64,000 bases of DNA from Chloroflexota bacterium (GTDB taxonomy: Bacteria; Chloroflexota; Dehalococcoidia; Lucifugimonadales; UBA3495), in NCBI GenBank assembly GCA_028875055.1, contig JAPPGG010000072.1, positions 51,032-115,031 on the forward strand. The letters run 5' to 3'. This document shows, piece by piece, positions 25,822 to 38,622 of this stretch (its first letter is position 1; every line of letters starts with the position of its first letter). Position numbers and translations under genes: made by a program. The notes beneath the pieces are model-generated. The model was not told the origin of the DNA and ran no database searches. It saw only the letters and a program-made list of their open reading frames with translations.

Positions 25822-27207
25822 ATGAGTGACTTGCCCCATATCCTCAGGCTTTCCGACTCTTTCTCCCAGCGTTCGGTTGCCCTGCGGCTCTCTGCAGAGG
25901 ACGCGTCCCTGCCGCTCAGCCATCTGATTGTCCGGTACCTGAAATGTCCTGACGGGCCCGACCTGCTGGCCAGGGAAGCAATTGCCCAGGAATCCCTCGT
26001 CACTCTTCAGTCGCTGCAGGACCTGGTTTACGCTTGCGATGACCTGGGTAGATTAACTGAGCCCTACTCGGGAGTCTCTTTCCGGCAGGATGACGCCCGA
26101 ATCGAAGTGAGTGAAATCCCGGGGTATTCCGAGATAGTAGTTGACGGGTCCAGCGCCAAGCTGACTGAGATTGTAATTGACCGCACCGATGCCGGTTACG
26201 ACAGGAACTGGGCCGGGTTTCATAGCCGTCGGTGGAACAATGCTCCCGGATTCTTTGAAGAGTTCGTGCTTGATTCGCTGGAGGAGGTCTTTGGTCCCCG
26301 GGAGGCTGGGCAGATTCTTCAACTCGAGAGCCAGGCGAGCATATTGGCCCTGGTGGAGACGCTTGCCAGGAAAATATGGGACAGCGAATTCGAAAATTAC
26401 TCCCGCTTTACCGGCCGGAAGCTGCTGTTCAAGACCGGCGACGAGACCGTCAGTAACATAGCTGCCGGCGCCGGCGGCATCTGCACCGAGAAAGTCCAGG
26501 CCCTCAGATTCCTCACCGACCACTACGGAATCCAGTCCGAGTACGTGATTGGCGGCGACGGCGCCCGTGACCCGGTCCCCGTCGAAAGGCTGAGGGAGAT
26601 GCTTCGGACCGGCGATTTCAGGTTTGCCCGGCGTCATATGCGCTACTGGCGGCACGCGGCCCTGCTTTACCAGATCGACGGGCTGCCCCTTCTCGTGGAC
26701 GCCACCAACGGCAACATCCCGTTCCTTTTCCTTAAGGGACCCGAGGCGGAGAGGCTCCTGGGGTATGAGCGCAAGCCATCCGTCCCCGTCAGGATGGTGG
26801 AAGCTGAGGAACAGTACTTCTACCACCGAGTCCCCCAGGACATTCCGCAGAACCTTTTCTTCGCCATGGAAAGCTGGATAACCGATACCGATATGGTCCA
26901 GGTTTTCGAGAATGAACTGGGCCTGTTTCTTTCCAGCGACTACTACGTCACTCCCCTACCCTATCGGACCCAGGCCGAATACCAGCGGCTGGCCGACGAA
27001 TACCAGGTCATCGCCGCCAGGGCAGGTTACCGGTGCCAGGCAAGCCCGCGGTGGACCCTGGACGGCGAGCCAGGTGAGGCCTTCTGCAAGTCCCACCCGG
27101 AAACTGCATCCCGGATATTGGACGCCAGGGAACATTTGCTGCTCAGGTATAATGGTTGGGACATTCCCGGTCACGACGCCGGCCTGGTTGTCATGGAAAT
27201 GGCCTGA
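25822..27207 (+). CDS. Hypothetical protein (461 aa) with possible transglutaminase-/papain-like Cys-His-Asp arrangement; first gene of the SecA-paralogue operon
   Basis: GGGAG RBS 6 nt upstream. GGICTEKVQALRFL (Cys221), RHAALLYQIDG (His278) and LLVDATNG (Asp293) have spacings of 57 and 15 aa, as in transglutaminase-core proteins. I recognise no other family. Confidence 0.7.
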   Translation: MSDLPHILRLSDSFSQRSVALRLSAEDASLPLSHLIVRYLKCPDGPDLLAREAIAQESLVTLQSLQDLVYACDDLGRLTEPYSGVSFRQDDARIEVSEIPGYSEIVVDGSSAKLTEIVIDRTDAGYDRNWAGFHSRRWNNAPGFFEEFVLDSLEEVFGPREAGQILQLESQASILALVETLARKIWDSEFENYSRFTGRKLLFKTGDETVSNIAAGAGGICTEKVQALRFLTDHYGIQSEYVIGGDGARDPVPVERLREMLRTGDFRFARRHMRYWRHAALLYQIDGLPLLVDATNGNIPFLFLKGPEAERLLGYERKPSVPVRMVEAEEQYFYHRVPQDIPQNLFFAMESWITDTDMVQVFENELGLFLSSDYYVTPLPYRTQAEYQRLADEYQVIAARAGYRCQASPRWTLDGEPGEAFCKSHPETASRILDAREHLLLRYNGWDIPGHDAGLVVMEMA

Positions 27208-27236
27208 ATCGACACCGGCGTCGCTGATTTCAGCCC

Positions 27237-30200
27237 ATGATTGCCAGCGACACTAAGCCACTCTACGCCCCGGCAAGACCAGGCGCCCTTACGCCTGGGG
27301 CCCTGCTGCGGCAGTGGCTGAGTGGTGTTGTTCATCCGGCTGCCAATTTGGTGTCACACCTTCGCGGGCAATCGCGGCAAGAGCTAGTGAAGAAAGTTCG
27401 CCAGGTTCGCCTGGATATGGCCCTGGAAGACTGGTCCGACTCGGACCTTCGCCGGCAAATGGACGACCTTCGGGCCGCCTTTTCTGAAACTCCAGGCCCC
27501 TCTGCCCGCGTCAATCGCCTTGTAGTCGCCTTCGCCATTGTCGATGAAAGTATTCGCCGGCGCGTGGGCTTCGGGCGTTTATTCAGCGACTCGGGCCGGT
27601 CCCCCGCTTTTGAGGCCTGTTTCGAGGCCTCGCAGGGACGTCGGAGCCTCAATGAGCTTTCGCCAGATGAAAAGACCGTCGCCGAAGCGATGATGCGGGC
27701 GGGCGCAGCAGGGAATGGTCGTTACGGTATTGACCTGATGTTCCCCGCCGGCCTCTACCGGGCGCTGGCTTCGGTGGACACCTCCGGTTCACTGCGCTTT
27801 CAGCCCACCGACGAGCAGCTGCTGGCGGGTATGTACCTGCTGGACAACCGGGTTGTAGAAATGCAGGCCGGCGAGGGAAAGACCGTTGCCATTGCTTTCG
27901 CCGCCATAGCCCACGCGCTTGGCGGACGGCATGTTCACATAATCACCGCCAATGATTACCTCGCCGACCGGGACTGCCGGCTACTGGCCCCGGTGTACAG
28001 GTCCCTTGGATTCTCTGCCGGCGCCATTCTGGAAGCCCTGGATGGCGCGGAGCGCAAGGCCGCCTACCAGAGCGATATTGTTTACGGCACCCTGAGGGAA
28101 CTGGGTTTCGATTTTCTTCGCGACCGACTGGCTGCCAGGGTCGAAGACGTGGTGCAGACCCCCCTTGGGGTGGCCATAGTGGACGAAGCGGACCAGGCGC
28201 TGGTGGATGAAGCGGACACTCCCCTCATTGTTTCCGGCCCACCGCTGCCCCAGTACCGTCCCTGGGCCCGCGTTCAAAAGGCGATCGGCGAAGTTGTCCA
28301 GGAGCAGCACAGAATCGCCGGGCAATATCTGCAACAGCTCAACGGCCTGGCCCCCGACGACAGAGCGTATGGCCGGTTGCTTTGCCTGGGGCTGCTTGCC
28401 AACCCCCACAGCAAGGACCTGCAGCGTCTTGCCCGCAACAATCCAGGTTCCTGCCGGCGGGGCCTTGGGGAACTCTACCCCGACGGCGGGGACAGTCCCG
28501 ACATGGCCCTCATCGCGAATCTGCTCTATGTCGTTGACCTCCACGAGCGATTCGTTACCCTCACCGAGAAGGGCGTGGACTTCCTTTCAAGTCGCCTGGG
28601 CGAATTCTGTCCCGCTTCCAACCACGGAGGCAAAGGTGGCGGGGACTCTGACCAGCTTACGAGGAGAGCGTCCCGGCAGCTGGCCCTGGCCAACCAGGTT
28701 TACCAGTCCCTCCGGGCCAACCTGCTCTTCGAAAGGGACGTCGATTACATCGTTTTCGATGACGCCGTCATACTGCTCGACCGGAACACCGGGCGTACCA
28801 GGCCCGATAACACTTACCGGTTCGGCCTGCAGCAGGCGGTGGAAGCCCGCGAAGGCGTAACCGTCCATCCCGAGAGTGAAACCGTGGCCCAGATTTCAGT
28901 CCAGGACTTTGCCGGGCGCTATCAGTTTCTTGCCGGCATTACCGGCACGGCCACCGCTGCCGCCAATGAGTTCAGGCGCCGCCACTCCCTGGACACCAAC
29001 GCAGTTCAACCCACTCAACCGTCCCAGCGTGTGGACTTGCCTTCCAGGATATTTGCTTCAGAAAGGCTGAAAATCGAGGCCATAGTGGAGGAAGTATCCT
29101 GGTGCCGGCGCATGGGCCGCCCGGTACTGGTGGGGACCGGTTCGGTCGGTTACTCCCTCGAAATCAGCCGGGCCCTCCGCGACGCCGGAATACACCACCG
29201 GGTCCTCAATGCAGTCCAGTCCCACCAGGAAGCGGACATTGTGCGCACTGCCGGCGCCCCGGGTGCGGTCACCGTGGCCACCAATATGGCTGGCCGGGGA
29301 ACCGATATCGTCCTCGATTCGGACGTGAACGATGTAATACTTGCCCGATGGGCTGACTTCGTTCTGGAAGCGGCCGCCGAGCAGCGGTTGCCCCTGGCAA
29401 TAAAGTGTTGCTCCAGGGCGGAGGCCGACCTTCTTGAGTCGGCCCTGGCAGATTCGCCTCTTATTTCAGTCTCTAGAGTCGGCGCACCCGGGGCGGAAGC
29501 CCTCCTGGTAACTGACCCACCCAGCCGGCTAGCCTGCAACCTGGACTCTGGCTTGTTCCATTGGGAATTTGGCCTGGGTCTCCACGTCATAAGCGCCGAG
29601 TTCAACCGGTTTCCCAGGGTTGCGCTGCAGCTCAGGGGACGCAGCGGACGCCAGGGTCTGTTTGGTTCAACCCGCTCAGTACTTTCCTGGGAAGATCCCG
29701 CTCTCCTCTCCCTGGGCCAAAGCCGCCCGGCCTTCCGGCGCTGCCAATATGAAGATGCCAGCGGCCGAGCCTGCTGGGAAGGTCAGGCTGTGGAAAGATA
29801 CATCGCCCGGCGGCAGGAGAACGCCGAGCAAGAGGCGGCTCAGCGCAGAAGCGTTGCCGGCGACTTTGCCTCCCTGATTGACGCCCAGAGTTCCGCCTAT
29901 TACGAGCTGCGCCAGGAACTCCTTTCCGGTCCTCGGGTCCTTGAGCGGTTGCCGGGCATTCTTTCAGACCGGGGTTCCCGCCTGGTACTGGAACATTTTC
30001 CCAACCTTGATACCGCCAGCTATCGTCAGCGCTATGAAGCCCTGATAAATGACGCCCGGCAGCGTTACGGGATAGTACTGGAAGAATTGTATGGGCTGTC
30101 ACTGGCCGCACTGCCTGCCGAAGTAGCCGCCAGAATGCGGCAGGCCGTGGACGAATTGGAACAGAGTCGCGGCCCCAGGGAGTTCAACTCACTGGTCCGG

Positions 30201-30479
30201 GGCTTGTGCGTCGAAACCTGCGATGAGTTGTGGCGCCGACACCTGGCCGACCTGCACCAGTCCGTTTTCAGTTCCCTCCTGAATGGCTATGGCCACAAGT
30301 CCGCGGTAGCCGACTACATTATCCACGCGGCGCAGTTGTGGGACCGTTTCAGCGACGACCTGTGGGACACGGTTTGTTCCAGATTGCTGACCCTTCCCTC
30401 TCCGCTGGATGAACCCGCAATCGGAAATCCCGTGGAGTGCGAAGAAATCCGAAGGGACCTGCTTTCCCTGATCCAGTGA
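27237..30479 (+). CDS. Divergent SecA-family ATPase (SecA paralogue, 1080 aa)
   Basis: Collinear with SecA. Walker A MQAGEGKT (27870-27884), ITANDYLADRD and DEADQALVDEADTPLIVSG. PPXD-flanking LFERDVDYIV, GLQQAVEAREGV and TGTA. NBD2 has PVLVGTGSV, ATNMAGRGTDI and QLRGRSGRQG. HSD/HWD-like tail (DELWRRHL). It differs from canonical SecA in several places (see findings). Confidence 0.9.
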   Translation: MIASDTKPLYAPARPGALTPGALLRQWLSGVVHPAANLVSHLRGQSRQELVKKVRQVRLDMALEDWSDSDLRRQMDDLRAAFSETPGPSARVNRLVVAFAIVDESIRRRVGFGRLFSDSGRSPAFEACFEASQGRRSLNELSPDEKTVAEAMMRAGAAGNGRYGIDLMFPAGLYRALASVDTSGSLRFQPTDEQLLAGMYLLDNRVVEMQAGEGKTVAIAFAAIAHALGGRHVHIITANDYLADRDCRLLAPVYRSLGFSAGAILEALDGAERKAAYQSDIVYGTLRELGFDFLRDRLAARVEDVVQTPLGVAIVDEADQALVDEADTPLIVSGPPLPQYRPWARVQKAIGEVVQEQHRIAGQYLQQLNGLAPDDRAYGRLLCLGLLANPHSKDLQRLARNNPGSCRRGLGELYPDGGDSPDMALIANLLYVVDLHERFVTLTEKGVDFLSSRLGEFCPASNHGGKGGGDSDQLTRRASRQLALANQVYQSLRANLLFERDVDYIVFDDAVILLDRNTGRTRPDNTYRFGLQQAVEAREGVTVHPESETVAQISVQDFAGRYQFLAGITGTATAAANEFRRRHSLDTNAVQPTQPSQRVDLPSRIFASERLKIEAIVEEVSWCRRMGRPVLVGTGSVGYSLEISRALRDAGIHHRVLNAVQSHQEADIVRTAGAPGAVTVATNMAGRGTDIVLDSDVNDVILARWADFVLEAAAEQRLPLAIKCCSRAEADLLESALADSPLISVSRVGAPGAEALLVTDPPSRLACNLDSGLFHWEFGLGLHVISAEFNRFPRVALQLRGRSGRQGLFGSTRSVLSWEDPALLSLGQSRPAFRRCQYEDASGRACWEGQAVERYIARRQENAEQEAAQRRSVAGDFASLIDAQSSAYYELRQELLSGPRVLERLPGILSDRGSRLVLEHFPNLDTASYRQRYEALINDARQRYGIVLEELYGLSLAALPAEVAARMRQAVDELEQSRGPREFNSLVRGLCVETCDELWRRHLADLHQSVFSSLLNGYGHKSAVADYIIHAAQLWDRFSDDLWDTVCSRLLTLPSPLDEPAIGNPVECEEIRRDLLSLIQ

Positions 30480-30566: not shown

Positions 30567-31391
30567 ATGGCCATAAGAATCAGAAGAATGAGCTCCGCGC
30601 TGTTTGCCGGCGCCATGCTGGCGGGGTCTCCGTTGATATCCGCGTGCAGCGCCGGCCCCACCTACGACACCTGGGCTGCCACCGACGGCGCCGCCGGCAG
30701 GATTAACCTGGACGACGTTCAGGAGGCATTCAAGGATTCCAGCAGCGCCACTGAGTTCGAGAATCGCGTCAACGAAATTTACGAGGGAGACGGCATAATC
30801 ATCATTCGGGCTCTCCAGGACGGAGACCGCCTGACCCTGGAAGGCTGGGAGGACCTGAACAATGACACCCAGATTGACGACTCCAGGGATGACCTGCTCT
30901 TCACCATCGTCAATCAGAATGACCAGAACGAGCTTCGCGGCCACCACGCCAACAGCTATTACCACAGCAGCTTCGGCGGCGGCGGCTTTTTGTTCGGCTA
31001 TATGCTGGCCACCGCCTTTATGCCCGGTCCATACTTCTACTCAACGCCGGTGACCCGCGGCTCTTCCATCCGCCAGACCCGCTCCTCCTATCGCCAGTCC
31101 GGCCGATACGGCACCCAGGTAGCCCGCAACAGCCGGTACGCGACCCAGCAGCAGGGTTTTGCCGGCTCCCGCTACCAGGATTCCGGCCGCAATCTCAGCT
31201 CCAACCGGCAGACTTACCAGCAGACGCAGCGAACTTCCGGCGCCTTTCGTTCCAGCAGCGCCGTTTCCAGGTCCAGGGGAACCTCCGGCTTTGGTTCCTC
31301 CGGATTCCGCTCCAGGAGCGGCAGCTTCAGCGGCGGCGGTGGCCACCAGAATCTGACTGGCAGGCGAGGCTCCACCCCGGATGCCCCCTGA
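30567..31391 (+). CDS. Predicted lipoprotein with R/S/G/Q-rich low-complexity C-terminal tail
   Basis: AAGGAG RBS 5 nt upstream. Signal peptide ending in the lipobox-like LISAC. A small acidic globular region, then the hydrophobic/Gly patch GGGGFLFGYMLATAF. The last 100 aa or so are dominated by R, S, G and Q. Confidence 0.75.
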   Translation: MAIRIRRMSSALFAGAMLAGSPLISACSAGPTYDTWAATDGAAGRINLDDVQEAFKDSSSATEFENRVNEIYEGDGIIIIRALQDGDRLTLEGWEDLNNDTQIDDSRDDLLFTIVNQNDQNELRGHHANSYYHSSFGGGGFLFGYMLATAFMPGPYFYSTPVTRGSSIRQTRSSYRQSGRYGTQVARNSRYATQQQGFAGSRYQDSGRNLSSNRQTYQQTQRTSGAFRSSSAVSRSRGTSGFGSSGFRSRSGSFSGGGGHQNLTGRRGSTPDAP

Positions 31392-32409
31392 CCGCCTGCA
31401 TATCGAACTGGCGCTGGAGGGTTTGCCGCCGGACGCCGTTCTTGAGTTTGAACTGCAGGAGGGCGCCACCGGCCTTTCCCTGGCCTCGCTTCTGGAAGAG
31501 GTTTTTCCTCGCGACGAGGCCGCCAGGATGGAGGTGGAAGAGTCCTTCGACTTGCGGTTAAATCCCGACGTGCCTGAAATCTACGGAGAATTCCTGGCGG
31601 TGGTCCGGCAATACCGGGCGGGCTTGTGCTCGCTCTCGGTCAGCTCCACCACTGGCCAGGACCTGTCCCCCACGGACCTGGTGGATGACCTGGTGGCCCC
31701 GGGTCCTCCCGGGAGCTTTTCGGTCCTGTCTCTGTCCCTGGCCGCCCAATACGATCCCCTGGAATATGCCGGGGACCAGGGTTACGATGCCGGCGAGCCG
31801 GACCTCCTGCACTGGTTGCTGGTGTGCTTAACGATGTACTTTATTGACAAGCACGAGTCATCCCTGCCAGCGCAGGAAAGCCTTGACCAGTGCCCGCCAT
31901 TGGCCTCGGCGGTGGATGAAATCCTCTCCCGAAACCTTGTAGAAACAGGGGACAACCCTCCAGCGGCTGCCATTACCCCCGAGGGCCGCAGGTTCATCGG
32001 AGACCTCCTGGCCGAAACCGAGCAGTTGATCGACTCTTATGACCTCTTCAAGGATGCCTGTTGGGATAAGGATACCGGCCAGGCCCTCTTTGGGACCGGA
32101 CAGGGGGAAGACTTGAGGGTCGAAGTGTTCATAGCAGATTCCATCGACCCGGTACGCGCCGTTTTTCTGCTTCGCCTCTACGACGGCTCGCTGGACCTTC
32201 TGGCTGACCGCTGGCCCGAGGCAGCCGCCGACATCGACCTCTTCAACAACTTGCTCTTGCCGGTAGTGGACCGGAGCGTCACTGAAAGTGAGTTGCTTGA
32301 GGAAATCATCGAGCAGGGCATGGAGTTGCTGGAGTCCCAGCAAGAAAGGATAAGGGAGGAAACCATATACAGAAGGGCTGCCCGCAGCGCGCTGGCCGAT
32401 GGATGCTAG
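31381..32409 (+). CDS. Hypothetical acidic protein (342 aa)
   Basis: ATG overlaps the 3' end of the lipoprotein gene by 11 nt (ATGCCCCCTGA). Strongly acidic, with no motif I recognise. The segment ITPEGRRFIGDLL is vaguely wHTH-like. Confidence 0.65.
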   Translation: MPPDRLHIELALEGLPPDAVLEFELQEGATGLSLASLLEEVFPRDEAARMEVEESFDLRLNPDVPEIYGEFLAVVRQYRAGLCSLSVSSTTGQDLSPTDLVDDLVAPGPPGSFSVLSLSLAAQYDPLEYAGDQGYDAGEPDLLHWLLVCLTMYFIDKHESSLPAQESLDQCPPLASAVDEILSRNLVETGDNPPAAAITPEGRRFIGDLLAETEQLIDSYDLFKDACWDKDTGQALFGTGQGEDLRVEVFIADSIDPVRAVFLLRLYDGSLDLLADRWPEAAADIDLFNNLLLPVVDRSVTESELLEEIIEQGMELLESQQERIREETIYRRAARSALADGC

Positions 32410-32669: not shown

Positions 32670-32695
32670 TCTCGCCTGAGCGACGTCAGGCGAGA
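32670..32695. terminator. Bidirectional intrinsic terminator between convergent genes
   Basis: TCTCGCCTGA-GCGACG-TCAGGCGAGA gives a 10-bp stem. Flanked by CCAAAACG on the left (T-run on the minus strand) and AACCTTTTTCC on the right. Confidence 0.6.
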
Positions 32696-32760: not shown

Positions 32761-33663
32761 CTAAATGGCAAAAAACAGTATCAGGGAAGAACTGATCACC
32801 ACCGTGCTCTCCAGTAGCGCCACCCCGAGGTTGCGGCCCTCACTCATCTGCTGTGCGACCTTTACCCCGGGTAGCAGCAGCAGGTCCACAATCAGGCGAA
32901 GAATATAGAGCAGCACAAATCCTATGATAGCGAAAACCACGAATTCCGTGATGCTGGCCTGCCAGCTTACGAAATCGCCGGACAGGGCCTTCAGCATTAC
33001 CAGGCCGATGGCAATAAGGTTGCCGCCGAAGGCCACCCCTACGGCCGCGTTATCCTTCTCGATCTCATCGTGTACGTCGAACGAGGTGGTCAATTCATAG
33101 AACAGGGCAAACAATACCAGCACTACCAGGCCAAGCCCCAGGAAGACCAGCGTGGACACGGCTTCAAGGACCTCGCTCCCGCCCCCGCTTCCCGTGAGGG
33201 AGCCGGCAATCATCAAGCCTGTGGCTACGCTGATTCCGAACTCGGCGGCGCCGGTTCCCACGTTCCGGTCCTCAACGATTTCCTTCTCTACGTTGAACTT
33301 GTACAGCACCAGCTTGTCCATCACCAGTCGCAGAATGTTCAGCGCGACAATGCCGCCCAGGGAATACAGGAACACCCTGAGAACATCTACGCCAAACTCG
33401 GCGTCGAACCCCAGCCCCGGGTCCAGCAATGCCAGGTGCGCCGGCTGATAGACTGCCCCCACGAATACCAGCACAACCCCCAGCAGGTACCCCGACAGGC
33501 GCAGGGATTCCGCCAGGTTCTGCTTCTGGACTACTTCCTCATCCTCCTTGAGGGTGGTGATAGCGCTTCTGACCAGCTTGGCCAGCAGTACCACCACTAC
33601 GCCCAGGACCACATAAACCAGCCCCCGGGGGAAGAACGTCAGTGAATCGATCAGTGCTTCCAT
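32761..33663 (-). CDS. DUF350-repeat integral membrane protein (YjfL-like)
   Basis: Multiple hydrophobic helices with repeated DUF350-like segments (AAEFGISVATGLMIAGSL; NAAVGVAFGGNLIAIGLV). The start ATG at 33663 lies 17 nt after the DUF4178 stop, with AAGGAG overlapping that stop. The track's longer N-terminus is R/G-rich. Confidence 0.75.
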   Translation of the reverse strand: MEALIDSLTFFPRGLVYVVLGVVVVLLAKLVRSAITTLKEDEEVVQKQNLAESLRLSGYLLGVVLVFVGAVYQPAHLALLDPGLGFDAEFGVDVLRVFLYSLGGIVALNILRLVMDKLVLYKFNVEKEIVEDRNVGTGAAEFGISVATGLMIAGSLTGSGGGSEVLEAVSTLVFLGLGLVVLVLFALFYELTTSFDVHDEIEKDNAAVGVAFGGNLIAIGLVMLKALSGDFVSWQASITEFVVFAIIGFVLLYILRLIVDLLLLPGVKVAQQMSEGRNLGVALLESTVVISSSLILFFAI

Positions 33664-33680
33664 AAAATCTGCCGGCTCCT

Positions 33681-34271
33681 TTACCCGGGCCGTTCCCCCG
33701 GATAGAGCTGTATGTTTTCTTCCGAGATAATGTCCGCGAAGTGAGCTTCGAAGGGCGTGCCCTCGAATTTCGTGATTGACAGTATTCTGCTCTCGTCCTC
33801 GGCCAGGAACTCCCACATGTAGAACCCTTCCCCGTCCGTGGGCCGGTTGTCCTTGAAGTAAAAGGCCTCGAAACTGTTGCGGTACATGAAACGCAGCCCG
33901 TCAAACTCAATGGACCGGTCGATCGACCTGCGTTCATCCATCTCCAGCAGGGCGGACTCAGGCAGGCCTATGGCTTCCAGGCCCACAGGGCGTCGGTTGT
34001 CGGTGGCAGTAACGAACAGGGTTGGGCCATCCTCCGACCACTCCAGCCATATGCGATTCTCCGCGTCCGCCACCACCAGTTCGTACCAGACGGCCCCGTT
34101 GCCACCGTAACGATGCAGGCTTTCAACCACAAAATAACATTCTTCGTAGTCCAGGGCCCAACCCTGTATGGTGACCACGTCCCCCACCCGGGCCTCCCTC
34201 AAGCTGTTATCGGCCCGAAAGCCCGTAGGGGCCGGCCGCTTCTTCCCCCTGCCAAAAAGTCCCCGAAGCAT
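33681..34271 (-). CDS. DUF4178 domain protein (YjfK-like)
   Basis: 196 aa, beta-rich. ARVGDVVTIQG...WYELVVAD...IWLEWSED resembles DUF4178 as I recall it. Operonic with the DUF350 gene, a pairing I recall as recurrent. Confidence 0.7.
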   Translation of the reverse strand: MLRGLFGRGKKRPAPTGFRADNSLREARVGDVVTIQGWALDYEECYFVVESLHRYGGNGAVWYELVVADAENRIWLEWSEDGPTLFVTATDNRRPVGLEAIGLPESALLEMDERRSIDRSIEFDGLRFMYRNSFEAFYFKDNRPTDGEGFYMWEFLAEDESRILSITKFEGTPFEAHFADIISEENIQLYPGERPG

Positions 34272-34628
34272 GTTGTCTGTTCCTTCTCTCTCGAATTAGC
34301 TGGTTTTGGGAGAGGACGGCCTTCAACGTCCCTGGCTTCTACCGTAGGCGGCTGCAGCCTCCCTTCCCTGCTCAAAAGCAACAATAACTGGACAACATCA
34401 TAGCACGGGGCCGGTTGGTCGAGGGTTTGCAACGGCGGCCCTGTTGCCCAGCTTTGCGATTGTCGCCAGGCAGGCAGCCAACCCGGTTAGCCCGCGGGTT
34501 GCCCTCGCGGCAAAACCGGTTCTGAAACCCTGCCAAGGAACTTCGCCCCCTTCCGGTTCCGGGGGTCCGATCACCTGATCAAGAAGGGTGCTTGCCAGGC
34601 AGTCCCCCTGATTTGCATTGCCCTGCCC

Positions 34629-34657
34629 TTGACCCCTAATGGCGGGAAATGTATTGT
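34629..34657 (+). promoter_or_regulatory. Candidate promoter for the small-TM/pspA operon
   Basis: TTGACC (34629-34634), 17-nt spacer, TATTGT (34652-34657). Confidence 0.4.
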
Positions 34658-34733
34658 GGAGTTGAGCAACTCAGATACGGTGCTCACTTTTTTCGCATTT
34701 CATCCTTTCAAATCCATGTAGGCGGTGAACCTG

Positions 34734-34904
34734 ATGGGCTCATTCGGCGGCATCCTCGCTGCTATTTTTCTGCTGATTCTCGGGGTGCTCCTGATAACCG
34801 GTATTCTCGATTTCATCCTGTGGATACTTGGCGCCGTCTGCATCGTGCTTGGCATAATTGTAGGCGCCATGGCAGTTTTCGGAGGCAAGAGAAACAGCTT
34901 CTGA
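34734..34904 (+). CDS. Small hydrophobic two-TM protein (56 aa), not in the ORF track
   Basis: MGSFGGILAAIFLLILGVLLITGILDFILWILGAVCIVLGIIVGAMAVFGGKRNSF*. Clean hydrophobic periodicity and a basic C-terminus. It lies 100 nt upstream of pspA on the same strand. The competing track ORFs here are R/H/W-rich. Confidence 0.5.
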   Translation: MGSFGGILAAIFLLILGVLLITGILDFILWILGAVCIVLGIIVGAMAVFGGKRNSF

Positions 34905-35004
34905 ATTCGGACCCCCAGGTTTCCGGCCATTCGGTTTCAACCCGATTCCACGAAAGAATAAATCGAACAGGCTCCCCATCCTATCCAGTCTGGAGGTCCC
35001 CAGC

Positions 35005-35775
35005 ATGGGAATGTTCTCAAGAATGTCCACAATCGTTAAGTCAAAAATGAACCGAATCCTGGACTCAGCGGAAGACCCCAGGGAAACCCTCGATTACTCC
35101 TACGAGAAACAGCTGGAAATGCTCCAGAACGTGAAGCGGGGCGTGGTGGAAATGGTTACCGCCAAACGCCGCATCCAGCAGCAGGCAGCCAAGGTGCGCG
35201 AGAACGTTACCCGCCTCGAGCGCCAGGCCAGGCAGGCCCTGGACGCCGACCGGGAAGACCTCGCCCGTCTGGCCCTGCAACGCAAGCAGAACGCTCTCAT
35301 CGAACTTCAGGGTCTGGATGAGCAGATCGAAGGAATGGAGCAGGAACAGCAGAAACTCACCATCGCCGAGCAGAGGCTGCAGGCCAAGGTTGACGCCTTC
35401 CGCAACAAGAAGGAAATCATCAAGGCCCAGTACACCGCAGCCCAGGCCCAGGTGAGGATCGGCTCGGCCCTGGGAGGAATCTCCGAGGAAATGAGCGACG
35501 TTTCCCTGGCTGTGCAGCGCGCGGAAAACAAGACTGACCAGATGCGGGCCAAGGCCGGCGCCATCGATGAGCTCGTGGAAACCGGCGTTCTGGACGACAT
35601 CACCGGACCCCAGGACGACATTGAAAGGGAGCTCTCCCAGATCTCCATTTCCCAGGGCGTCGAGGAAGAACTTGCCGCCCTCAAGGGTGGTGGCTCCGGC
35701 GCCAGGGCGTTGCCAGCCTCTCAGTCTGCCGTGGACGCCGAACTGGACGCTCTCAGAAACCAGGGTTCCAGCTAA
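35005..35775 (+). CDS. pspA: PspA/IM30 (Vipp1) family protein
   Basis: MGMFSRMSTIVKSKMNRILDSAEDPRETLDYSYEKQ parallels the PspA N-terminus [25 protein letters not shown]. Long coiled coil. GGAGGT RBS. Confidence 0.9.
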   Translation: MGMFSRMSTIVKSKMNRILDSAEDPRETLDYSYEKQLEMLQNVKRGVVEMVTAKRRIQQQAAKVRENVTRLERQARQALDADREDLARLALQRKQNALIELQGLDEQIEGMEQEQQKLTIAEQRLQAKVDAFRNKKEIIKAQYTAAQAQVRIGSALGGISEEMSDVSLAVQRAENKTDQMRAKAGAIDELVETGVLDDITGPQDDIERELSQISISQGVEEELAALKGGGSGARALPASQSAVDAELDALRNQGSS

Positions 35776-35796
35776 TCTAGGGGCAGGTGGACAAAG

Positions 35797-36075
35797 ATGA
35801 TCGTAAGAATTCTGGGTGAAGGCCAGTTCAATCTGCCCGGCGCGGCAATCGACGAGCTGAACGAAATTGACAACCGCATGGTGGAAGCCGTGGAGGCGGA
35901 AGACCGCTCCACGCTGACTGCTCTGCTTCAGGAAATGGAAACCCTAGTCCGCGAAAAGGGAGAGCCGGTACCTATCGATGAGCTGGTGGAGTCAGACCTG
36001 ATTCTGCCCGAAACCGACCTCACCCTGGAAGAAGCCGAAAGCATATTTGTGGGCGAAGGGCTCCTGCCAGGTTAG
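35797..36075 (+). CDS. Small acidic PspA-associated protein (PspAA-like)
   Basis: 92 aa and very acidic, 21 nt downstream of pspA. Its size, position and MIVRILGEGQF... start fit the PspA-associated small protein family as I recall it. Confidence 0.6.
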   Translation: MIVRILGEGQFNLPGAAIDELNEIDNRMVEAVEAEDRSTLTALLQEMETLVREKGEPVPIDELVESDLILPETDLTLEEAESIFVGEGLLPG

Positions 36076-36098
36076 TTTCCGTATCGCACCAATCCAGC

Positions 36099-36126
36099 AG
36101 GGGGGACGCGCCGACGTCCCCTCTTT
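36099..36126 (+). terminator. Intrinsic terminator of the pspA operon
   Basis: GGGGGGACG-CGCCGA-CGTCCCCTC stem of 9-10 bp, followed by TTT. Confidence 0.55.
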
Positions 36127-36152: not shown

Positions 36153-37469
36153 TTACCCTTGCGTCTCCACCACCGGCGCCGGACGAATCGGTCGCCGGAC
36201 CGATGCGGGATCAATGCCGGCGCGCATGGCCGACATCACCCCTGCAGCCTCCCAGTAATTCTCCACCACGTAGAACTGTCCCGTTTGCCAGGGAAGCATT
36301 TCCAGGTCGTTCCGCATCAGGTTCCGGTTCTCTCTTACGGCGATCACCTTGATCCCCTGTTCCAGCGCCGCAAGCACCGGCAGCCCCAGGCAACCCTCCG
36401 GAATCACCAGGCAGGAAATGTTCGACGCGCCAATGACGCCCGGATGGGCCATGGCGGCAGCATCGGTAGTCAGGGCAGGGCTCTGCTGCAACCCCTTCAG
36501 AATGCATTGAATCAGCGCCAGGGAAACTCCCTCCGCTGCCATGCGAGGGTCAATAATCCCCGGGTCGGCGTTGGCAATGGCCTGGGTCTCCAGCATGGGC
36601 GCGTGGGCCGACGGCACGTCCAGCATTGCGGAAACGGCATGCGTCAGCATGGCTTCCACCCCGCCCCAGGGATTTACCATCTCCCCGTTGCTGTCAAAGT
36701 ACTCGGCGTGGAAGCCTTCTGGGACATTTATCTGGGAGGATATGGCGACGGCATCAAACTGCCCCCTGTACTCTTCCAGGGCGTCCAGAACGCGTTCCAG
36801 GCCCCTGACTTTGCCCGCTGCCCTCCCCGACCCCACATAGGCTGATGCCATCTCGAACTCCGGGCCCAGCCTGACCATCCCCGGGACAGCCAGTCCATAT
36901 GTGGCGCGGGCCGCGTTAACCGAGTTTATGGCGGCGTTCAGGAACAGCTCGTCATTGTGGTGACCCAGCAGAACCAGGACCCGGTTGCTGCGGGTTCGCT
37001 GCAGTCCCACCGCTCCCATCAGGAGCCGCGAGATTATGCTCCCTTCCACGTAAAGCGCATTCCCCGGAATGTCGATGATGTCCGATGCATTGACTACGTT
37101 GGGGTGGGTGATCAGGGTGTCGCAGGCGGCAGACAGCAGCTTTGCCACCGGCGTGGCATCCCCCGCATGCCCCCCAATTTCGGCCCCAATTCCCGTGGGA
37201 ACCAACAACACGCAGGTAAAATTCCCCACGTTCTCAAAGGAGCGGCGATGAAACTGGAATATGGAAGAGGGAGGCGCTCCTTCCCACTCCGACAGTATGC
37301 TTACTTCGCAGTTGAACGCTTCGCCGGAGGACGAAGTCACCGCCAGCCTGACGGGCCATTCACCCGCAACAAGCTGCCGCCCAACGCCATCTCCCAGATC
37401 CGCCAAAGCGGCTCCGGACCGGACGTCCACGGGGACGGTCAATTCCCTTTCATGAAGGATGGCTGGCAT
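36153..37469 (-). CDS. DUF3326 family protein
   Basis: LLVPTGIGAEIGGHAGDATPVAKLL...THPNVVNASD is the conserved DUF3326 core as I recall it. The start ATG at 37469 overlaps the nspC 3' end by 20 nt. Confidence 0.75.
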   Translation of the reverse strand: MPAILHERELTVPVDVRSGAALADLGDGVGRQLVAGEWPVRLAVTSSSGEAFNCEVSILSEWEGAPPSSIFQFHRRSFENVGNFTCVLLVPTGIGAEIGGHAGDATPVAKLLSAACDTLITHPNVVNASDIIDIPGNALYVEGSIISRLLMGAVGLQRTRSNRVLVLLGHHNDELFLNAAINSVNAARATYGLAVPGMVRLGPEFEMASAYVGSGRAAGKVRGLERVLDALEEYRGQFDAVAISSQINVPEGFHAEYFDSNGEMVNPWGGVEAMLTHAVSAMLDVPSAHAPMLETQAIANADPGIIDPRMAAEGVSLALIQCILKGLQQSPALTTDAAAMAHPGVIGASNISCLVIPEGCLGLPVLAALEQGIKVIAVRENRNLMRNDLEMLPWQTGQFYVVENYWEAAGVMSAMRAGIDPASVRRPIRPAPVVETQG

Positions 37470-38622
37470 TAGTTTTCCATCGTCCGGCGTAGTCCTCGTA
37501 GTCAAACTCCCTCAGCAGCCTGAGCCGCCCTTCCGGGCTGACCGCGTAAAGAGTTGGCAGATTGACACCGTTGAAGGTGTGGGCCTTGGCCAGGGTATAG
37601 GAACCGGCATTCTTGAATACCACCCGGTCTCCCACCTCTAGCGGACGCTCAAATCTGTACTCTCCGAATACATCGCCGGCCAGGCAGGTGCACCCGGCCA
37701 GCAGGTACTCCCATTTCCCGTCGTCCTGGTGACCATCCACGTCCGGCCCAAAGTCGAACTCCAGCAGTTCCGGCATGTGGTTGACTGTGGTGTCCAGCAC
37801 TGCGACCATCTTCCCGCCGCTGTCGAAAATGTCCAGCGCCGTGCTGACCATGTGCCCCGCGGAACGGGCAAAGGCCGTGCCGGGTTCAAGAAAAACCATC
37901 AGGTCGTATTCCCCGCGCAGGTGTTCGATGGTCGCACGCAGGGGGGCCAGGTCAACCCCCTCCGGCAACAGGTAGCCTCCGCCCAGGTTTATCCACGACG
38001 CCTGCTCCAGCAGATGGGGCAGCCGCTGCTCGAGGCAGTCCACCGTCTGTTGCAGCTCAAGGAAATCGGTAGATTCGCAGTTTGTATGCACCAGCAATCC
38101 CTCGGGCTTCCCGACGCCCAGTCCCTCCAGGCTGTCCATGCCGGCCAGGACGTCAATGGGAATGCCCAGCTTCGAGTGTTCGCGGCACGGGTCATACCGT
38201 TCGTCGTCAAGAAAGGACATTCCCGGATTGACCCTCAGTCCCGGGCTGGCCCGGCCATCAAAATAAGCCCCGGTGTTGCGCCATTGCCCCAGGCTGTTGA
38301 AGGAGACATAATCGCACAGGCCCGCCAGCTCCGAAGCGTCTCGAAGCCTGATTCCGGGGCTGGTGAAATGGATGGAACTGGGCTCTCCCACGACCGAGCG
38401 CGCCAGCCTGGCTTCAAACACCGAACTCGCTGCGAAGCCGCTCAGCCTCGGCGCCATCAGCTCCAGCATTGGCGGGAGGGGCAGGGGTTTGAGGGAATAG
38501 AGCATCCTGCAGCCTGTCTCCCTCTGCAGGGACTCGGCAACCTCCAGAACCCGCAGAATCTCTCCCTCATCGTAAACGAGGGCCGGGGTATTCACGGCAT
38601 CAAGCAGGCTGCTTAACTGCAT
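37450..38622 (-). CDS. nspC: Carboxynorspermidine/carboxyspermidine decarboxylase
   Basis: 390 aa. PALVYDE...LYSLKPLP (PLP-Lys region), GGGY and CLAGD(V/I)FGEY are characteristic of the CANSDC branch of alanine-racemase-fold decarboxylases. Confidence 0.8.
   Translation of the reverse strand: MQLSSLLDAVNTPALVYDEGEILRVLEVAESLQRETGCRMLYSLKPLPLPPMLELMAPRLSGFAASSVFEARLARSVVGEPSSIHFTSPGIRLRDASELAGLCDYVSFNSLGQWRNTGAYFDGRASPGLRVNPGMSFLDDERYDPCREHSKLGIPIDVLAGMDSLEGLGVGKPEGLLVHTNCESTDFLELQQTVDCLEQRLPHLLEQASWINLGGGYLLPEGVDLAPLRATIEHLRGEYDLMVFLEPGTAFARSAGHMVSTALDIFDSGGKMVAVLDTTVNHMPELLEFDFGPDVDGHQDDGKWEYLLAGCTCLAGDVFGEYRFERPLEVGDRVVFKNAGSYTLAKAHTFNGVNLPTLYAVSPEGRLRLLREFDYEDYAGRWKTNASHPS

What the first reader, a model, noticed from the sequence alone, without database searches (positions are those of the whole stretch)
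32761..36126. PspA/IM30 envelope-stress module with divergent DUF4178-DUF350 pair and a PspAA-like partner
On the minus strand, DUF4178 and a DUF350-repeat membrane protein form a 2-gene operon, with a 17-nt gap and the SD overlapping the stop. A 460-bp divergent region follows. Beyond it lie a candidate promoter, a 56-aa two-TM protein, pspA and a 92-aa acidic protein, closed by a terminator.

DUF350 and a DUF4178/DUF2491-like protein next to a PspA paralogue mirror the E. coli yjfJ (PspA-family)-yjfK-yjfL arrangement. The small acidic protein fits the PspA-associated 'PspAA' class known from comparative genomics. This combined architecture appears to be poorly studied experimentally.
Basis: partly seen in the sequence, partly recalled or inferred. 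Interest (0 to 1): 0.55.

Follow-up and report, generated by a model that had tools for sequence, protein, structure and literature searches.

The report
PspA membrane-repair operon beside DUF4178–DUF350
A SAR202-type Chloroflexota genome carries a three-gene PspA membrane-repair operon back to back with a DUF4178–DUF350 membrane-protein pair, inside a larger conserved gene cassette that includes polyamine-synthesis enzymes; it is a new variant of gene neighbourhoods already known from comparative genomics, and none of it has been tested experimentally.

Summary
Pfam supports DUF350 (two repeats), DUF4178, PspA_IM30 and PspAA above their curated cut-offs. Independent gene callers give the same gene models.

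Comparative data add to it:
- The 56-aa two-TM ORF is a real gene, found upstream of pspA in all 55 related PspA-bearing loci.
- The candidate promoter is conserved in 48 of 56 loci.
- DUF4178 has its own conserved extended -10 promoter.
- pspAA is followed by a terminator hairpin, which recurs in most close relatives.

The module is syntenic in 56 of 63 Dehalococcoidia/SAR202 species genomes.

The E. coli yjfJKL analogy is weak. Only DUF350 is demonstrably shared. The closer precedent is the Shewanella SO_3765-type PspA/YjfL/DUF4178/polyamine operon of Ravi et al. 2024.

The pair DUF4178–DUF350 proves to be the edge of a wider cassette. That cassette holds a SecA-like gene, a lipoprotein, two unnamed families, and an NspC-like decarboxylase with DUF3326. 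It recurs in distant lineages without PspA.

When anchored without bias, the PspA trio adjoins DUF4178 in only 5 of 21 metagenome loci. It does so, however, in two different cassette layouts.

Verdict: real, a new variant of a known kind, moderately interesting.

The parts
34629..34657 (+). Sigma-70-type promoter TTGACC-N17-TATTGT for the tm56-pspA-pspAA operon
   Evidence: Consensus scan. It is the only conserved block in the upstream alignment of 21 relatives. The motif TTGACN-N16-18-TANNNT is found in 48 of 56 loci and in 4 of 6 alternative-layout metagenome loci.
34734..34904 (+). Small 56-aa two-TM hairpin membrane protein, with no Pfam family; first gene of the PspA operon
   Evidence: ORF. 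Called independently on public contigs. A homologous 55-65-aa hydrophobic ORF lies upstream of pspA in all 55 PspA-bearing genome loci and in 6 metagenome loci. No Pfam, NCBIfam or PADLOC match.
35005..35775 (+). pspA: PspA/IM30 (bacterial ESCRT-III) protein, 256 aa, Vipp1-like in length with a C-terminal extension
   Evidence: PF04012, 92.1 bits. Matches solved Vipp1/PspA structures at E 1.8e-18 and 1.1e-17, the latter (Vipp1/PspA, 6zvr) aligned over residues 1-253. 74-100% identical among relatives.
35797..36075 (+). pspAA: 92-aa acidic PspA-associated protein, 21 nt downstream of pspA
   Evidence: PF22743, 114.8 bits, covering the full length of the profile. pI 4.05. 4340 homologous clusters found. 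The AlphaFold model has low confidence (pLDDT 67), and the fold search found nothing.
36099..36124 (+). Terminator-like hairpin closing the PspA operon; convergent with the DUF3326 gene
   Evidence: 10-bp G+C-rich stem. A G+C hairpin followed by a T-run occurs at the same place in most close relatives.
34396..34406 (-). Extended -10 promoter element (GTGCTATGATG on the minus strand) for DUF4178-DUF350, about 125 nt upstream of the DUF4178 start
   Evidence: It is the only conserved block (consensus CCGTGCTATTATG) in the alignment of DUF4178 upstream regions from 21 relatives. It occurs once in the window.
33681..34271 (-). DUF4178 protein, 196 aa, acidic, beta-rich, no TM segment
   Evidence: PF13785, 37.8 bits. 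AlphaFold model with pLDDT 85, mostly beta strands. No solved structure with a similar fold: best E 0.1, TM about 0.2.
32761..33663 (-). Double DUF350 (YjfL-family) membrane protein, 300 aa, about 8 TM segments; the 17-nt gap suggests translational coupling to DUF4178
   Evidence: PF03994, two stretches, E 2e-50. Hydropathy profile. Adjacent to and co-directional with DUF4178 in all 63 genome loci. BLASTP E 4e-5 to E. coli YjfL.
32670..32695 (.). Bidirectional terminator-like hairpin between the convergent unk342 and DUF350 genes
   Evidence: 10-bp stem with T-runs on both sides.
36153..37469 (-). DUF3326 protein (438 aa), overlapping its upstream NspC-like partner gene by 20 nt; associated polyamine-synthesis candidate
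   Evidence: PF11805, 300 bits. Present in 60 of 63 genome loci. A DUF3326 protein (PavB) acts with an NspC-like decarboxylase domain (PavA) to make a triamine (bioRxiv 10.64898/2026.06.12.731819).
37450..38622 (-). Carboxy(nor)spermidine-decarboxylase-like PLP enzyme, 390 aa
   Evidence: TIGR01047, 272.8 bits, below the equivalog cut-off of 409. E 2e-74 to the solved carboxynorspermidine decarboxylase 9eaf.
30567..31391 (+). Lipoprotein of an unnamed family: lipobox Cys27, a conserved globular domain, and a conserved Ser/Arg/Gly-rich tail; part of the wider cassette
   Evidence: Alignments A2 and A6. No Pfam match; the only weak hit is DUF1190 at E 1.7. Only 157 representative homologues among 1.84 billion proteins. 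A SecA-like gene lies upstream in 46 of 47 loci, and unk342 lies downstream in 48 of 49.
31381..32409 (+). Acidic 342-aa protein of an unnamed family (pI 4.05), overlapping the lipoprotein gene by 11 nt
   Evidence: No Pfam, NCBIfam or PDB match. Conserved next to lipoprotein homologues in organisms with GC content from 34% to 72%.
25822..30479 (+). A 461-aa unnamed protein (25822-27207) and a divergent SecA-like ATPase (27237-30479), upstream members of the wider cassette
   Evidence: SecA domains present, but 515 bits against the equivalog cut-off of 814. Both are conserved in 58-59 of 63 genome loci and recur beside lipoprotein homologues in distant lineages.

Best explanation
What it is: two divergently transcribed operons in an uncultured SAR202/Dehalococcoidia bacterium.

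Operon 1 is driven by a sigma-70-type promoter. It encodes a 56-aa two-TM protein, a Vipp1-like PspA (bacterial ESCRT-III) and the acidic PspAA protein.

Operon 2 is driven by an extended -10 promoter. It encodes the soluble beta-rich DUF4178 protein and an 8-TM double-DUF350 (YjfL-family) protein.

Operon 2 is the outer edge of a wider conserved cassette: a 461-aa protein, a SecA-like ATPase, a lipoprotein and an acidic 342-aa protein, which converge on DUF350-DUF4178. A movable NspC-like decarboxylase plus DUF3326 pair, inferred here to make a polyamine, goes with it. Together these form a lineage-specific variant of the PspA / YjfL(DUF350) / DUF4178 / lipoprotein / polyamine neighbourhoods described by Ravi et al. 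2024.

How it most likely works (inferred, not shown):
- The cassette acts at the cytoplasmic membrane. It makes a di- or triamine-derived compound with the NspC-like/DUF3326 pair, and handles or senses it through the DUF350 membrane protein and its cytoplasmic partner DUF4178, together with the exported lipoprotein.
- PspA polymerises on the inner face of stressed membrane to seal it.
- The small two-TM protein is the PspA membrane anchor or recruiter, in the role of LiaI, PspB/C or PspM.
- The acidic PspAA binds PspA and holds or chaperones it, in the role taken by CesT/Tir proteins in the related operons.

No PspF, sigma-54 or two-component regulator is present.

Shown: gene identities, operon anatomy, conserved promoters and conserved neighbourhoods. 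Inferred: every biochemical role and the functional coupling between the units.
For: Identities: Pfam, PDB and NCBIfam matches.

Operon anatomy:
- The 17-nt and 21-nt intergenic gaps.
- Conserved promoters.
- Terminators.
- The small TM gene is present in 55 of 55 PspA-bearing loci.

Conservation of the block in 63 species genomes: DUF350 63, NspC and DUF3326 60 each, PspAA 57, PspA 56, and unk342, the lipoprotein and SecA 59 each. The flanking genes are kept far less often: NIPSNAP 28, Trx 18 relatives (19 tblastn hits, one weak and displaced) and MBL 14.

The same block is recovered when anchoring on PspAA.

The PspA trio stays divergent from DUF4178 in a second layout, where NspC-DUF3326 sit on the far side of the cassette (L087, GC 41%; L123, GC 61%). 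The small TM gene is present there too.

Cassette reality:
- One co-directional array, DUF350-lipoprotein-unk342-u461-SNase-K+ channel-NspC-DUF3326, occurs in an organism with 39% GC.
- SecA-lipoprotein-unk342-u461-NspC-DUF3326 occurs in L159.
- SecA lies upstream of the lipoprotein in 46 of 47 loci, and unk342 downstream in 48 of 49.

Independent recurrence of the theme elsewhere: PspA with YjfL, DUF4178 or DUF2491, a lipoprotein and polyamine enzymes in Proteobacteria (PMC11237479).

A DUF3326 protein plus an NspC-like decarboxylase domain makes a triamine.
Against: - The PspA trio is not part of the cassette core. With the unbiased lipoprotein anchor it adjoins DUF4178 in only 5 of 21 loci that have enough flank.
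- It is absent from L059, L060, L062 and L067-L070 and from the distant cassettes L075 and L076.
- The units are separate transcription units with different promoter types, and no shared operator was found.
- All genomes with the trio belong to one class, so shared ancestry could explain much of the synteny.
- No CesT/Tir protein, spermine synthase or ATP-grasp ligase is present, so membership in the published operon classes fails on several defining parts.
- The function of every non-PspA component is unknown. The fold searches gave nothing.
Confidence: 0.55

Rival explanations
1. Mere juxtaposition. The tm56-PspA-PspAA trio is a self-contained, constitutively poised membrane-repair operon. 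It landed at the edge of an unrelated cassette in one SAR202 sub-lineage and has stayed there through phylogenetic inertia. DUF4178-DUF350 works only with the SecA-lipoprotein-polyamine cassette.
For: - The trio is absent in 16 of 21 lipoprotein-anchored loci, where the gene beyond DUF4178 varies (amidohydrolase, tRNA synthetase, GlmU-like), so DUF4178 marks the cassette boundary.
- It is absent in L059, L060, L062 and L068-L070, where the rest is intact. In L060 and L062 the order NspC-DUF3326-DUF4178-DUF350 is co-directional.
- The distant cassettes lack both PspA and DUF4178.
- The units have separate promoters of different types.
- PspA-PspAA dyads exist on their own in many phyla.
Against: - The adjacency persists in 56 of 63 species genomes, down to 39-42% DUF4178 identity, while the outer flanks are lost.
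- It persists in two different cassette layouts.
- PspA-family genes have become linked to DUF350, DUF4178 and polyamine genes independently in Proteobacteria, through non-orthologous partners.
Confidence: 0.3
2. A secretion-centred system. The core is a specialised SecA-like translocase with its dedicated lipoprotein substrate and accessory proteins (unk342, u461, DUF350-DUF4178). PspA is retained next to it to buffer the membrane or proton-motive-force stress caused by translocation. The polyamine genes are incidental.
For: - A SecA-like gene lies immediately upstream of the lipoprotein in 46 of 47 loci across GC contents of 34-72%.
- This SecA is divergent: 515 bits against a cut-off of 814, and only 37-50% identical among most relatives (those beyond the closest) whose PspA is 74-92% identical.
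- From established knowledge of E. coli, the classical Psp response is induced by secretion defects.
Against: - It cannot be told whether this is a second SecA or the only one in these genomes.
- L075 and L076 have the DUF350-lipoprotein-unk342-u461 array without SecA.
- NspC-DUF3326 accompany the cassette in several layouts, which argues that they are not incidental.
Confidence: 0.1
3. One reading: an orthologous counterpart of the E. coli yjfJ-yjfK-yjfL (PspA paralogue - DUF2491 - DUF350) operon.
For: Both loci have a PspA_IM30 protein, a DUF350 protein, a lipoprotein and a polyamine-related enzyme nearby. DUF350 matches YjfL at E 4e-5.
Against: - PspA against YjfJ gives E 1.6.
- DUF4178 against YjfK gives hhalign probability 1%.
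- The lipoprotein against YjfM gives probability 0.4%.
- unk342 against YjfI gives no match.
- There is no ATP-grasp YjfC homologue.
- YjfL has 4 TM segments, against 8 here.
- E. coli has one co-directional operon, against four transcription units here.
Confidence: 0.05

Closest known systems
Shewanella oneidensis SO_3765-type operon (Ravi et al. 2024, mSystems, PMC11237479): LipoSIG+Ctha_1186+low-complexity -> 8-TM YjfL -> 7TM-spermine synthase -> CesT/Tir -> PspA -> DUF4178 -> RHH
   Same: A PspA_IM30 protein, a DUF4178 protein, an 8-TM double-DUF350 protein, a lipoprotein with a low-complexity tail and a polyamine-biosynthesis enzyme all lie in one neighbourhood. A small acidic partner is encoded next to pspA.
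   Different: - The partner is PspAA, not CesT/Tir.
- The polyamine enzymes are an NspC-like decarboxylase plus DUF3326, not a 7TM-spermine synthase.
- There is no RHH regulator.
- There are four transcription units rather than one operon.
- Extra members are present: the small two-TM protein, a SecA-like gene, and the 342-aa and 461-aa unnamed proteins.
- Homology of the lipoprotein to Ctha_1186 could not be tested.
PspA-PspAA dyad (Ravi et al. 2024)
   Same: pspA is followed directly by a PspAA (PF22743) gene on the same strand. The dyad is reported in Chloroflexi, Actinobacteria, archaea and other groups, with occasional PspA-PspAA fusions.
   Different: Here the dyad is a triad with a conserved upstream 55-65-aa two-TM gene. 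It is embedded beside DUF4178-DUF350. The published contexts for the dyad are stand-alone, with a two-component system, or with PspAB and a metallopeptidase.
E. coli yjfIJKLMC (DUF2170 - PspA-family YjfJ - DUF2491 - DUF350 YjfL - DUF1190 lipoprotein - peptide--spermidine ligase YjfC)
   Same: The theme is shared: a PspA family member, a DUF350 membrane protein, a lipoprotein and a polyamine-related enzyme.
   Different: Only DUF350 is detectably homologous. YjfL has 4 TM segments against 8 here. The PspA subfamilies differ. E. coli has one co-directional operon.
Small membrane partners of PspA-family proteins: LiaI (B. subtilis), PspB/PspC (E. coli), PspM (M. tuberculosis)
   Same: Each is a small integral membrane protein encoded in the same operon as the PspA homologue. 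The role these partners suggest for the 56-aa protein is to recruit or anchor PspA at the membrane.
   Different: There is no sequence similarity to any of them: no PspB, PspC or LiaI-LiaF-TM hit in Pfam. At 56 aa it is shorter than any of them. No cognate regulator (PspF, LiaFSR, ClgR) is nearby.
PavA/PavB of Caballeronia leaf endophytes (bioRxiv 10.64898/2026.06.12.731819)
   Same: A DUF3326 protein is paired with a carboxynorspermidine-decarboxylase-like enzyme. Together they produce a symmetric triamine.
   Different: PavA is a 1119-aa fusion with Rieske and racemase-like domains, and it is accompanied by a JmjC hydroxylase. Here the decarboxylase stands alone, and the substrate and product are unknown.

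Membership tests
PspA/IM30 (bacterial ESCRT-III) family | PspA_IM30 domain over the whole protein, above the curated cut-off | tested here: met
   PF04012, 92.1 bits against 33.9, residues 2-228.
PspA/IM30 (bacterial ESCRT-III) family | Sequence homology to PspA/Vipp1 proteins with solved ESCRT-III-like structures | tested here: met
   E 1.8e-18 to sll0617 and 1.1e-17 to Vipp1/PspA (6zvr), the latter aligned over residues 1-253.
PspA/IM30 (bacterial ESCRT-III) family | Formation of rings or rods and binding or remodelling of membranes | not testable with these tools
   Needs purified protein. Only the N-terminal amphipathic-looking segment MGMFSRMSTIVKSKMNRIL can be read from the sequence.
Classical Psp system (PspF-sigma54-PspABC) | PspB, PspC and the PspF activator encoded nearby, with a sigma-54 promoter | tested here: not met
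   No such domains in the roughly 45 ORFs of the window that were scanned. The conserved promoter is sigma-70-type.
PspA-PspAA dyad (Ravi et al. 2024) | A PspAA-domain protein encoded immediately downstream of pspA on the same strand | tested here: met
   PF22743, 114.8 bits against 27, covering the full profile; 21-nt gap. Present in 57 of 63 relatives.
PspA-PspAA dyad (Ravi et al. 2024) | Absolutely conserved Arg and Asp in the domain (supplement Text S1.3) | tested here: inconclusive
   R4, D25, D67 and D74 are invariant in alignment A5. But all 33 sequences are at least 75% identical, and the positions were not mapped onto the published family alignment.
Shewanella SO_3765-type PspA/YjfL/DUF4178/spermine-synthase operon | DUF4178 protein, 8-TM YjfL (DUF350) protein and PspA in one neighbourhood | tested here: met
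   neighbourhood conserved.
Shewanella SO_3765-type PspA/YjfL/DUF4178/spermine-synthase operon | CesT/Tir (DUF2170) chaperone-like partner forming a dyad with PspA | tested here: not met
   No CesT or DUF2170 hit in any neighbouring protein. unk342 against YjfI gave hhalign probability 0.2%. PspAA occupies the partner position.
Shewanella SO_3765-type PspA/YjfL/DUF4178/spermine-synthase operon | 7TM-fused spermine/spermidine synthase | tested here: not met
   No Spermine_synth domain among the ORFs of the window that were scanned. An NspC-like decarboxylase and DUF3326 are present instead.
Shewanella SO_3765-type PspA/YjfL/DUF4178/spermine-synthase operon | Lipoprotein with a Ctha_1186 domain and a low-complexity tail | not testable with these tools
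   A lipoprotein with a conserved domain and a low-complexity tail is present. No Ctha_1186 or SO_376x sequence or profile was available for comparison.
E. coli yjfIJKLMC-type operon | DUF2170, YjfJ-type PspA, DUF2491, DUF1190 lipoprotein and ATP-grasp YjfC | tested here: not met
   BLASTP and hhalign were negative for all of them. The DUF1190 hit has E 1.7 only. Only DUF350 is shared.
Carboxy(nor)spermidine decarboxylase (NspC, TIGR01047) | Score above the equivalog cut-off | tested here: not met
   272.8 bits against 409. It is clearly in the family at superfamily level (E 2e-74 to 9eaf), but its substrate is not assignable.

The most novel reading that the evidence does not exclude
The wider cassette is a previously undescribed envelope machine. 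It comprises a SecA-like ATPase, the lipoprotein with its Ser/Arg/Gly tail, the 342-aa and 461-aa unnamed proteins, 8-TM DUF350 with or without DUF4178, and the NspC-like/DUF3326 pair, sometimes with a K+ channel. It would synthesise a dedicated polyamine and deploy it at the membrane or on the exported lipoprotein. In one SAR202 lineage it has captured an ESCRT-III trio (small TM anchor, PspA, PspAA) as built-in membrane repair. If so, polyamine chemistry and ESCRT-III membrane remodelling would be mechanistically coupled in bacteria, as Ravi et al. suspected from unrelated operons.
Probability: 0.15. Interest if true: 0.7.

Novelty: new variant of a known kind. Interest (0 to 1): 0.5.

Why it matters
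PspA/Vipp1 proteins are the bacterial ESCRT-III. How they are recruited and held in check outside Proteobacteria and Firmicutes is largely unknown.

This locus offers a compact, strongly conserved triad of a 56-aa membrane protein, PspA and PspAA as a candidate minimal recruitment and regulation unit.

It is also a third, independent instance of PspA genes sitting beside DUF350-family membrane proteins and polyamine enzymes. The partners are non-orthologous each time. That recurrence strengthens the case for a real polyamine-membrane-PspA connection.

It further exposes three protein families with no Pfam or NCBIfam model, and a divergent SecA, in SAR202. By my own knowledge, not tested here, SAR202 is among the most abundant bacterial groups of the deep ocean and of marine sponges.

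Tried and rejected
- **Rfam:** an E-value scan of 30-39 kb gave only two chance-level hits, so there is no riboswitch or sRNA in the 462-nt intergenic region.
- **Repeats:** a repeat and inverted-repeat search of the intergenic region found nothing convincing and no shared operator.
- **tm56-pspA spacer:** it shows no conserved sequence or structure apart from the Shine-Dalgarno sequence.
- **DUF4178 fold:** the model is good (pLDDT 85), but no PDB fold match was found (best E 0.1, TM about 0.2), so no function could be inferred.
- **PspAA fold:** the model has low confidence (pLDDT 67). The fold search returned only helical-hairpin noise and was discarded.
- **E. coli comparisons:** profile comparisons of DUF4178 with YjfK, the lipoprotein with YjfM, and unk342 with YjfI were all negative.
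- **unk342:** the profile against PDB sequences gave no hit.
- **PADLOC:** no defence-system match, so an anti-phage reading was rejected.
- **Distant homologues:** the PspAA and DUF4178 homologue searches list only the best 120 hits, all from the same clade. Distant PspAA or DUF4178 contexts therefore could not be surveyed.
- **Cluster names for lipoprotein homologues:** 19 of 20 are unnamed metagenome proteins and one is a named Spirochaetota MAG protein. Two longer lipoprotein-domain variants have unrelated contexts.
- **Composition:** the profile shows no foreign-DNA signal.

Full report
**1. Observation**

DUF4178 (33681-34271, 196 aa) and a double-DUF350 protein (32761-33663, 300 aa) lie on the minus strand. 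They are separated by TAA-AGGAGCCGGCAGATTTT-ATG, a 17-nt gap whose Shine-Dalgarno sequence overlaps the stop codon.

A 462-nt divergent region follows (34272-34733). On the plus strand lie a 56-aa hydrophobic hairpin protein (34734-34904), pspA (35005-35775) and a 92-aa acidic protein (35797-36075). A 10-bp G+C-rich hairpin sits at 36099-36124.

Pfam places all four named domains above their curated cut-offs:
- DUF350: two stretches, E 2e-50.
- DUF4178: 37.8 bits against 25.
- PspA_IM30: 92.1 bits against 33.9.
- PspAA: 114.8 bits against 27, covering the full profile.

Gene callers on two public contigs carrying the identical PspA give the same five gene models. The organism is an uncultured Chloroflexota bacterium of the SAR202/Dehalococcoidia type. 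The nearest records are sponge or marine MAGs with 90-100% identical proteins.

**2. Anatomy refined by comparison**

I fetched 63 species-level genome loci around DUF4178 relatives. All are Dehalococcoidia, with 39-95% DUF4178 identity.

*The small membrane protein.* tblastn detected it in only 28 loci. A direct ORF search found a homologous 55-65-aa two-TM ORF upstream of pspA in all 55 PspA-bearing loci. It carries a conserved LG(I/V)L...G(I/V)L(D/N)F(L)L.I.G..CI core and a basic-aromatic C-terminus. It is therefore a real gene and the first cistron of a three-gene unit.

*Promoter of the PspA operon.* The candidate promoter is not significant on its own: one site against 0.9 expected. But CCCTTGAC-N17-GTATTGTTGA is the only conserved block in otherwise unalignable upstream DNA. 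A TTGACN-N16-18-TANNNT motif is present in 48 of 56 loci.

*Promoter of DUF4178.* Upstream of DUF4178 the only conserved block is CCGTGCTATTATG. This is an extended -10 element. In the window it is the complement of 34396-34406.

*Terminators and spacer.* A G+C hairpin followed by a T-run lies downstream of pspAA in most close relatives. A bidirectional hairpin (32670-32695) separates DUF350 from the convergent upstream genes. The spacer between the small gene and pspA conserves only the Shine-Dalgarno sequence, so pspA is most likely transcribed from the upstream promoter.

*What is absent.* I found no Rfam element, no operator-like repeat, and no PspF, PspB, PspC, Lia or ClgR component.

**3. 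Synteny**

In the 63 genome loci the counts are: DUF350 63, NspC-like and DUF3326 60 each, PspAA 57, PspA 56, and the 342-aa protein, the lipoprotein and the SecA-like gene 59 each. The 461-aa protein is present in 58.

The outer flanks decay much faster: NIPSNAP 28, thioredoxin-like 18 relatives (19 tblastn hits, one weak and displaced), metallo-beta-lactamase 14.

Anchoring on PspAA instead recovers the same block.

**4. The pair belongs to a larger cassette**

To the right of pspAA lie a DUF3326 gene and an overlapping carboxynorspermidine-decarboxylase-like gene. The latter scores 272.8 bits on TIGR01047, below the equivalog cut-off, and E 2e-74 to the solved enzyme 9eaf. A 2026 preprint shows that a DUF3326 protein (PavB) and an NspC-like decarboxylase domain (PavA) jointly make a triamine. 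I therefore read this pair as a polyamine-synthesis unit.

To the left, convergent with DUF350, lie four genes without family assignment or with a divergent one:
- A lipoprotein of an unnamed family, with a lipobox, a conserved domain and a conserved Ser/Arg/Gly tail.
- An acidic 342-aa protein with no family.
- Further upstream, a divergent SecA-like ATPase (515 bits against a cut-off of 814).
- A 461-aa protein with no family.

An exhaustive phmmer search found only 157 representative homologues of the lipoprotein among 1.84 billion proteins. Of the 20 I looked up, 19 are unnamed metagenome proteins and one is a named Spirochaetota MAG protein.

The contexts of these homologues were decisive:
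- In an organism with 39% GC, one co-directional array reads DUF350 - lipoprotein - 342-aa homologue - 461-aa homologue - SNase - K+ channel - NspC-like - DUF3326. Each homology was confirmed by BLASTP.
- A second array has DUF350 - lipoprotein - two unnamed proteins (the second a 461-aa homologue by tblastn) - AMP-binding - SNase - K+ channel.
- A third, at 34% GC, has SecA - lipoprotein - 342-aa homologue.

A metagenome scan anchored on the lipoprotein family gave 80 loci with GC contents of 39-72%. A SecA-like gene lies upstream in 46 of 47 loci with enough room. The 342-aa gene lies downstream in 48 of 49. DUF350-DUF4178 lie convergently beyond it in 30 loci.

**5. Where PspA fits**

With this unbiased anchor, the PspA trio adjoins DUF4178 in only 5 of 21 loci that have at least 2.5 kb of flank. 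Where it is absent, the gene beyond DUF4178 is variable, so DUF4178 is the edge of the cassette.

In some deep-branching relatives the order NspC-DUF3326-DUF4178-DUF350 is co-directional with no PspA (L060, L062). In others the polyamine pair is divergent from DUF4178 (L059, L068).

Against this, the trio, including its small TM gene, remains divergent from DUF4178 in a second cassette layout. There NspC-DUF3326 sit on the far side, upstream of the 461-aa and SecA genes (L087 at 41% GC; L123 at 61% GC).

So the association between the PspA trio and DUF4178-DUF350 is lineage-restricted. It has nonetheless survived rearrangement of the rest of the cassette.

**6. Mechanism**

Shown: identities, operon structure, promoters and conserved neighbourhoods.

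Inferred:
- PspA is Vipp1-like over its full length. I infer that it polymerises on stressed membrane.
- The 56-aa hairpin protein is its membrane anchor or recruiter. This is by analogy with LiaI, PspB/C and PspM, and there is no homology to any of them.
- PspAA (pI 4.05) binds and restrains or chaperones PspA. Two facts support this: its fixed position after pspA, and the PspA-PspAA fusions reported by Ravi et al..
- DUF4178 is soluble and beta-rich. Its model has pLDDT 85 and no PDB fold match. It probably forms a complex with 8-TM DUF350, given the 17-nt coupling and 63 of 63 adjacency.
- That complex acts with the lipoprotein, SecA-like and polyamine genes.

I put 0.55 on the coupled-module reading, 0.3 on mere juxtaposition, 0.1 on a secretion-centred system and 0.05 on E. 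coli-type orthology.

**7. Comparison with the known**

Ravi et al. 2024 (PMC11237479) already defined PspAA and the PspA-PspAA dyad. They also described PspA operons containing YjfL/DUF350, DUF4178 or DUF2491, lipoproteins, K+ channels and polyamine enzymes. They proposed a link between polyamines and PspA.

E. coli yjfIJKLMC was fetched and compared. Only DUF350 is detectably shared.

The Shewanella SO_3765 class shares four families or roles. It differs in the PspA partner (CesT/Tir against PspAA), in the enzyme (7TM-spermine synthase against NspC-like/DUF3326) and in organisation.

I found no paper that treats PspAA or DUF4178 experimentally, and none on the function of DUF350.

**8. Verdict**

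The finding is real and well observed. Its interpretation is partly right.

It is a new variant of a known kind of neighbourhood, not a new kind of system. The new elements are:
- the conserved small TM cistron;
- the combination of PspAA with DUF4178-DUF350;
- the replacement polyamine pair;
- the recognition of a wider cassette built from three families without a Pfam or NCBIfam model and a divergent SecA.

Interest is moderate (0.5).

Noticed in passing
window 27237-30479 (+): The SecA-like ATPase is divergent: 515 bits against the 814-bit equivalog cut-off. It is only 37-50% identical among most relatives (those beyond the closest) whose PspA is 74-92% identical. A SecA-like gene lies directly upstream of the lipoprotein gene in 46 of 47 loci spanning GC contents of 34-72%. 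Whether it is a second, accessory SecA or the only one could not be determined.
   Followed up: partly
window 25822-27207, 30567-31391, 31381-32409 (+): Three protein families have no Pfam or NCBIfam model, and the one searched against PDB sequences (the 342-aa protein) has no match there: the 461-aa protein, the lipoprotein with a conserved Ser/Arg/Gly tail, and the acidic 342-aa protein. They travel together across distant lineages (L075, L076, L079, L159). The lipoprotein family has only 157 representatives among 1.84 billion proteins.
   Followed up: partly
window 36153-38622 (-): The DUF3326 gene and the NspC-like decarboxylase gene overlap by 20 nt. This is the same pairing as PavB/PavA, which makes a triamine, so DUF3326 may be a non-homologous substitute for carboxy(nor)spermidine dehydrogenase. 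The substrate is unknown.
   Followed up: partly
L068 16943-19978; L075 11351-13022; L076 13524-17471: An SNase-domain protein recurs next to an Ion_trans_2+RCK potassium channel in the distant cassettes L075 and L076. A small unnamed protein and an AMP-binding enzyme accompany the channel in L068 and L076. This echoes the K+ channel in the Alteromonas PspA/YjfL operon of Ravi et al.
   Followed up: no
promoter spacers upstream of the small TM gene, e.g. L018, L022 (CGGCTTGCCAGGCAAGC) and L030-L053 (GCCGCCGGCGACGCCCAT); window 34635-34651: The 17-18-nt spacer between the -35 and -10 elements holds clade-specific G+C-rich palindromes. These could be operator sites for an unidentified regulator, or they could simply reflect relatedness within clades.
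   Followed up: no
L059 4297-9746: In one PspA-less relative, the locus divergent from DUF4178 carries a glutamine-synthetase-like gene (a possible gamma-glutamyl-polyamine synthetase), DUF3326 and two tandem NspC-like genes.
   Followed up: no
window 38701-39315 (-): The double-NIPSNAP protein next to the NspC-like gene is exceptionally conserved, at 74-98% identity (median 91%). But it is syntenic only in the closer relatives (28 of 63).
   Followed up: no
L025, L026, L048, L067: Local rearrangements sit exactly at the DUF4178 upstream boundary. L067 has a Transposase_mut gene there, L025 and L048 have large inserted genes, and L026 has the PspAA/DUF3326/NspC/NIPSNAP segment inverted and displaced. 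This suggests the divergent intergenic region is a recombination-prone junction.
   Followed up: no
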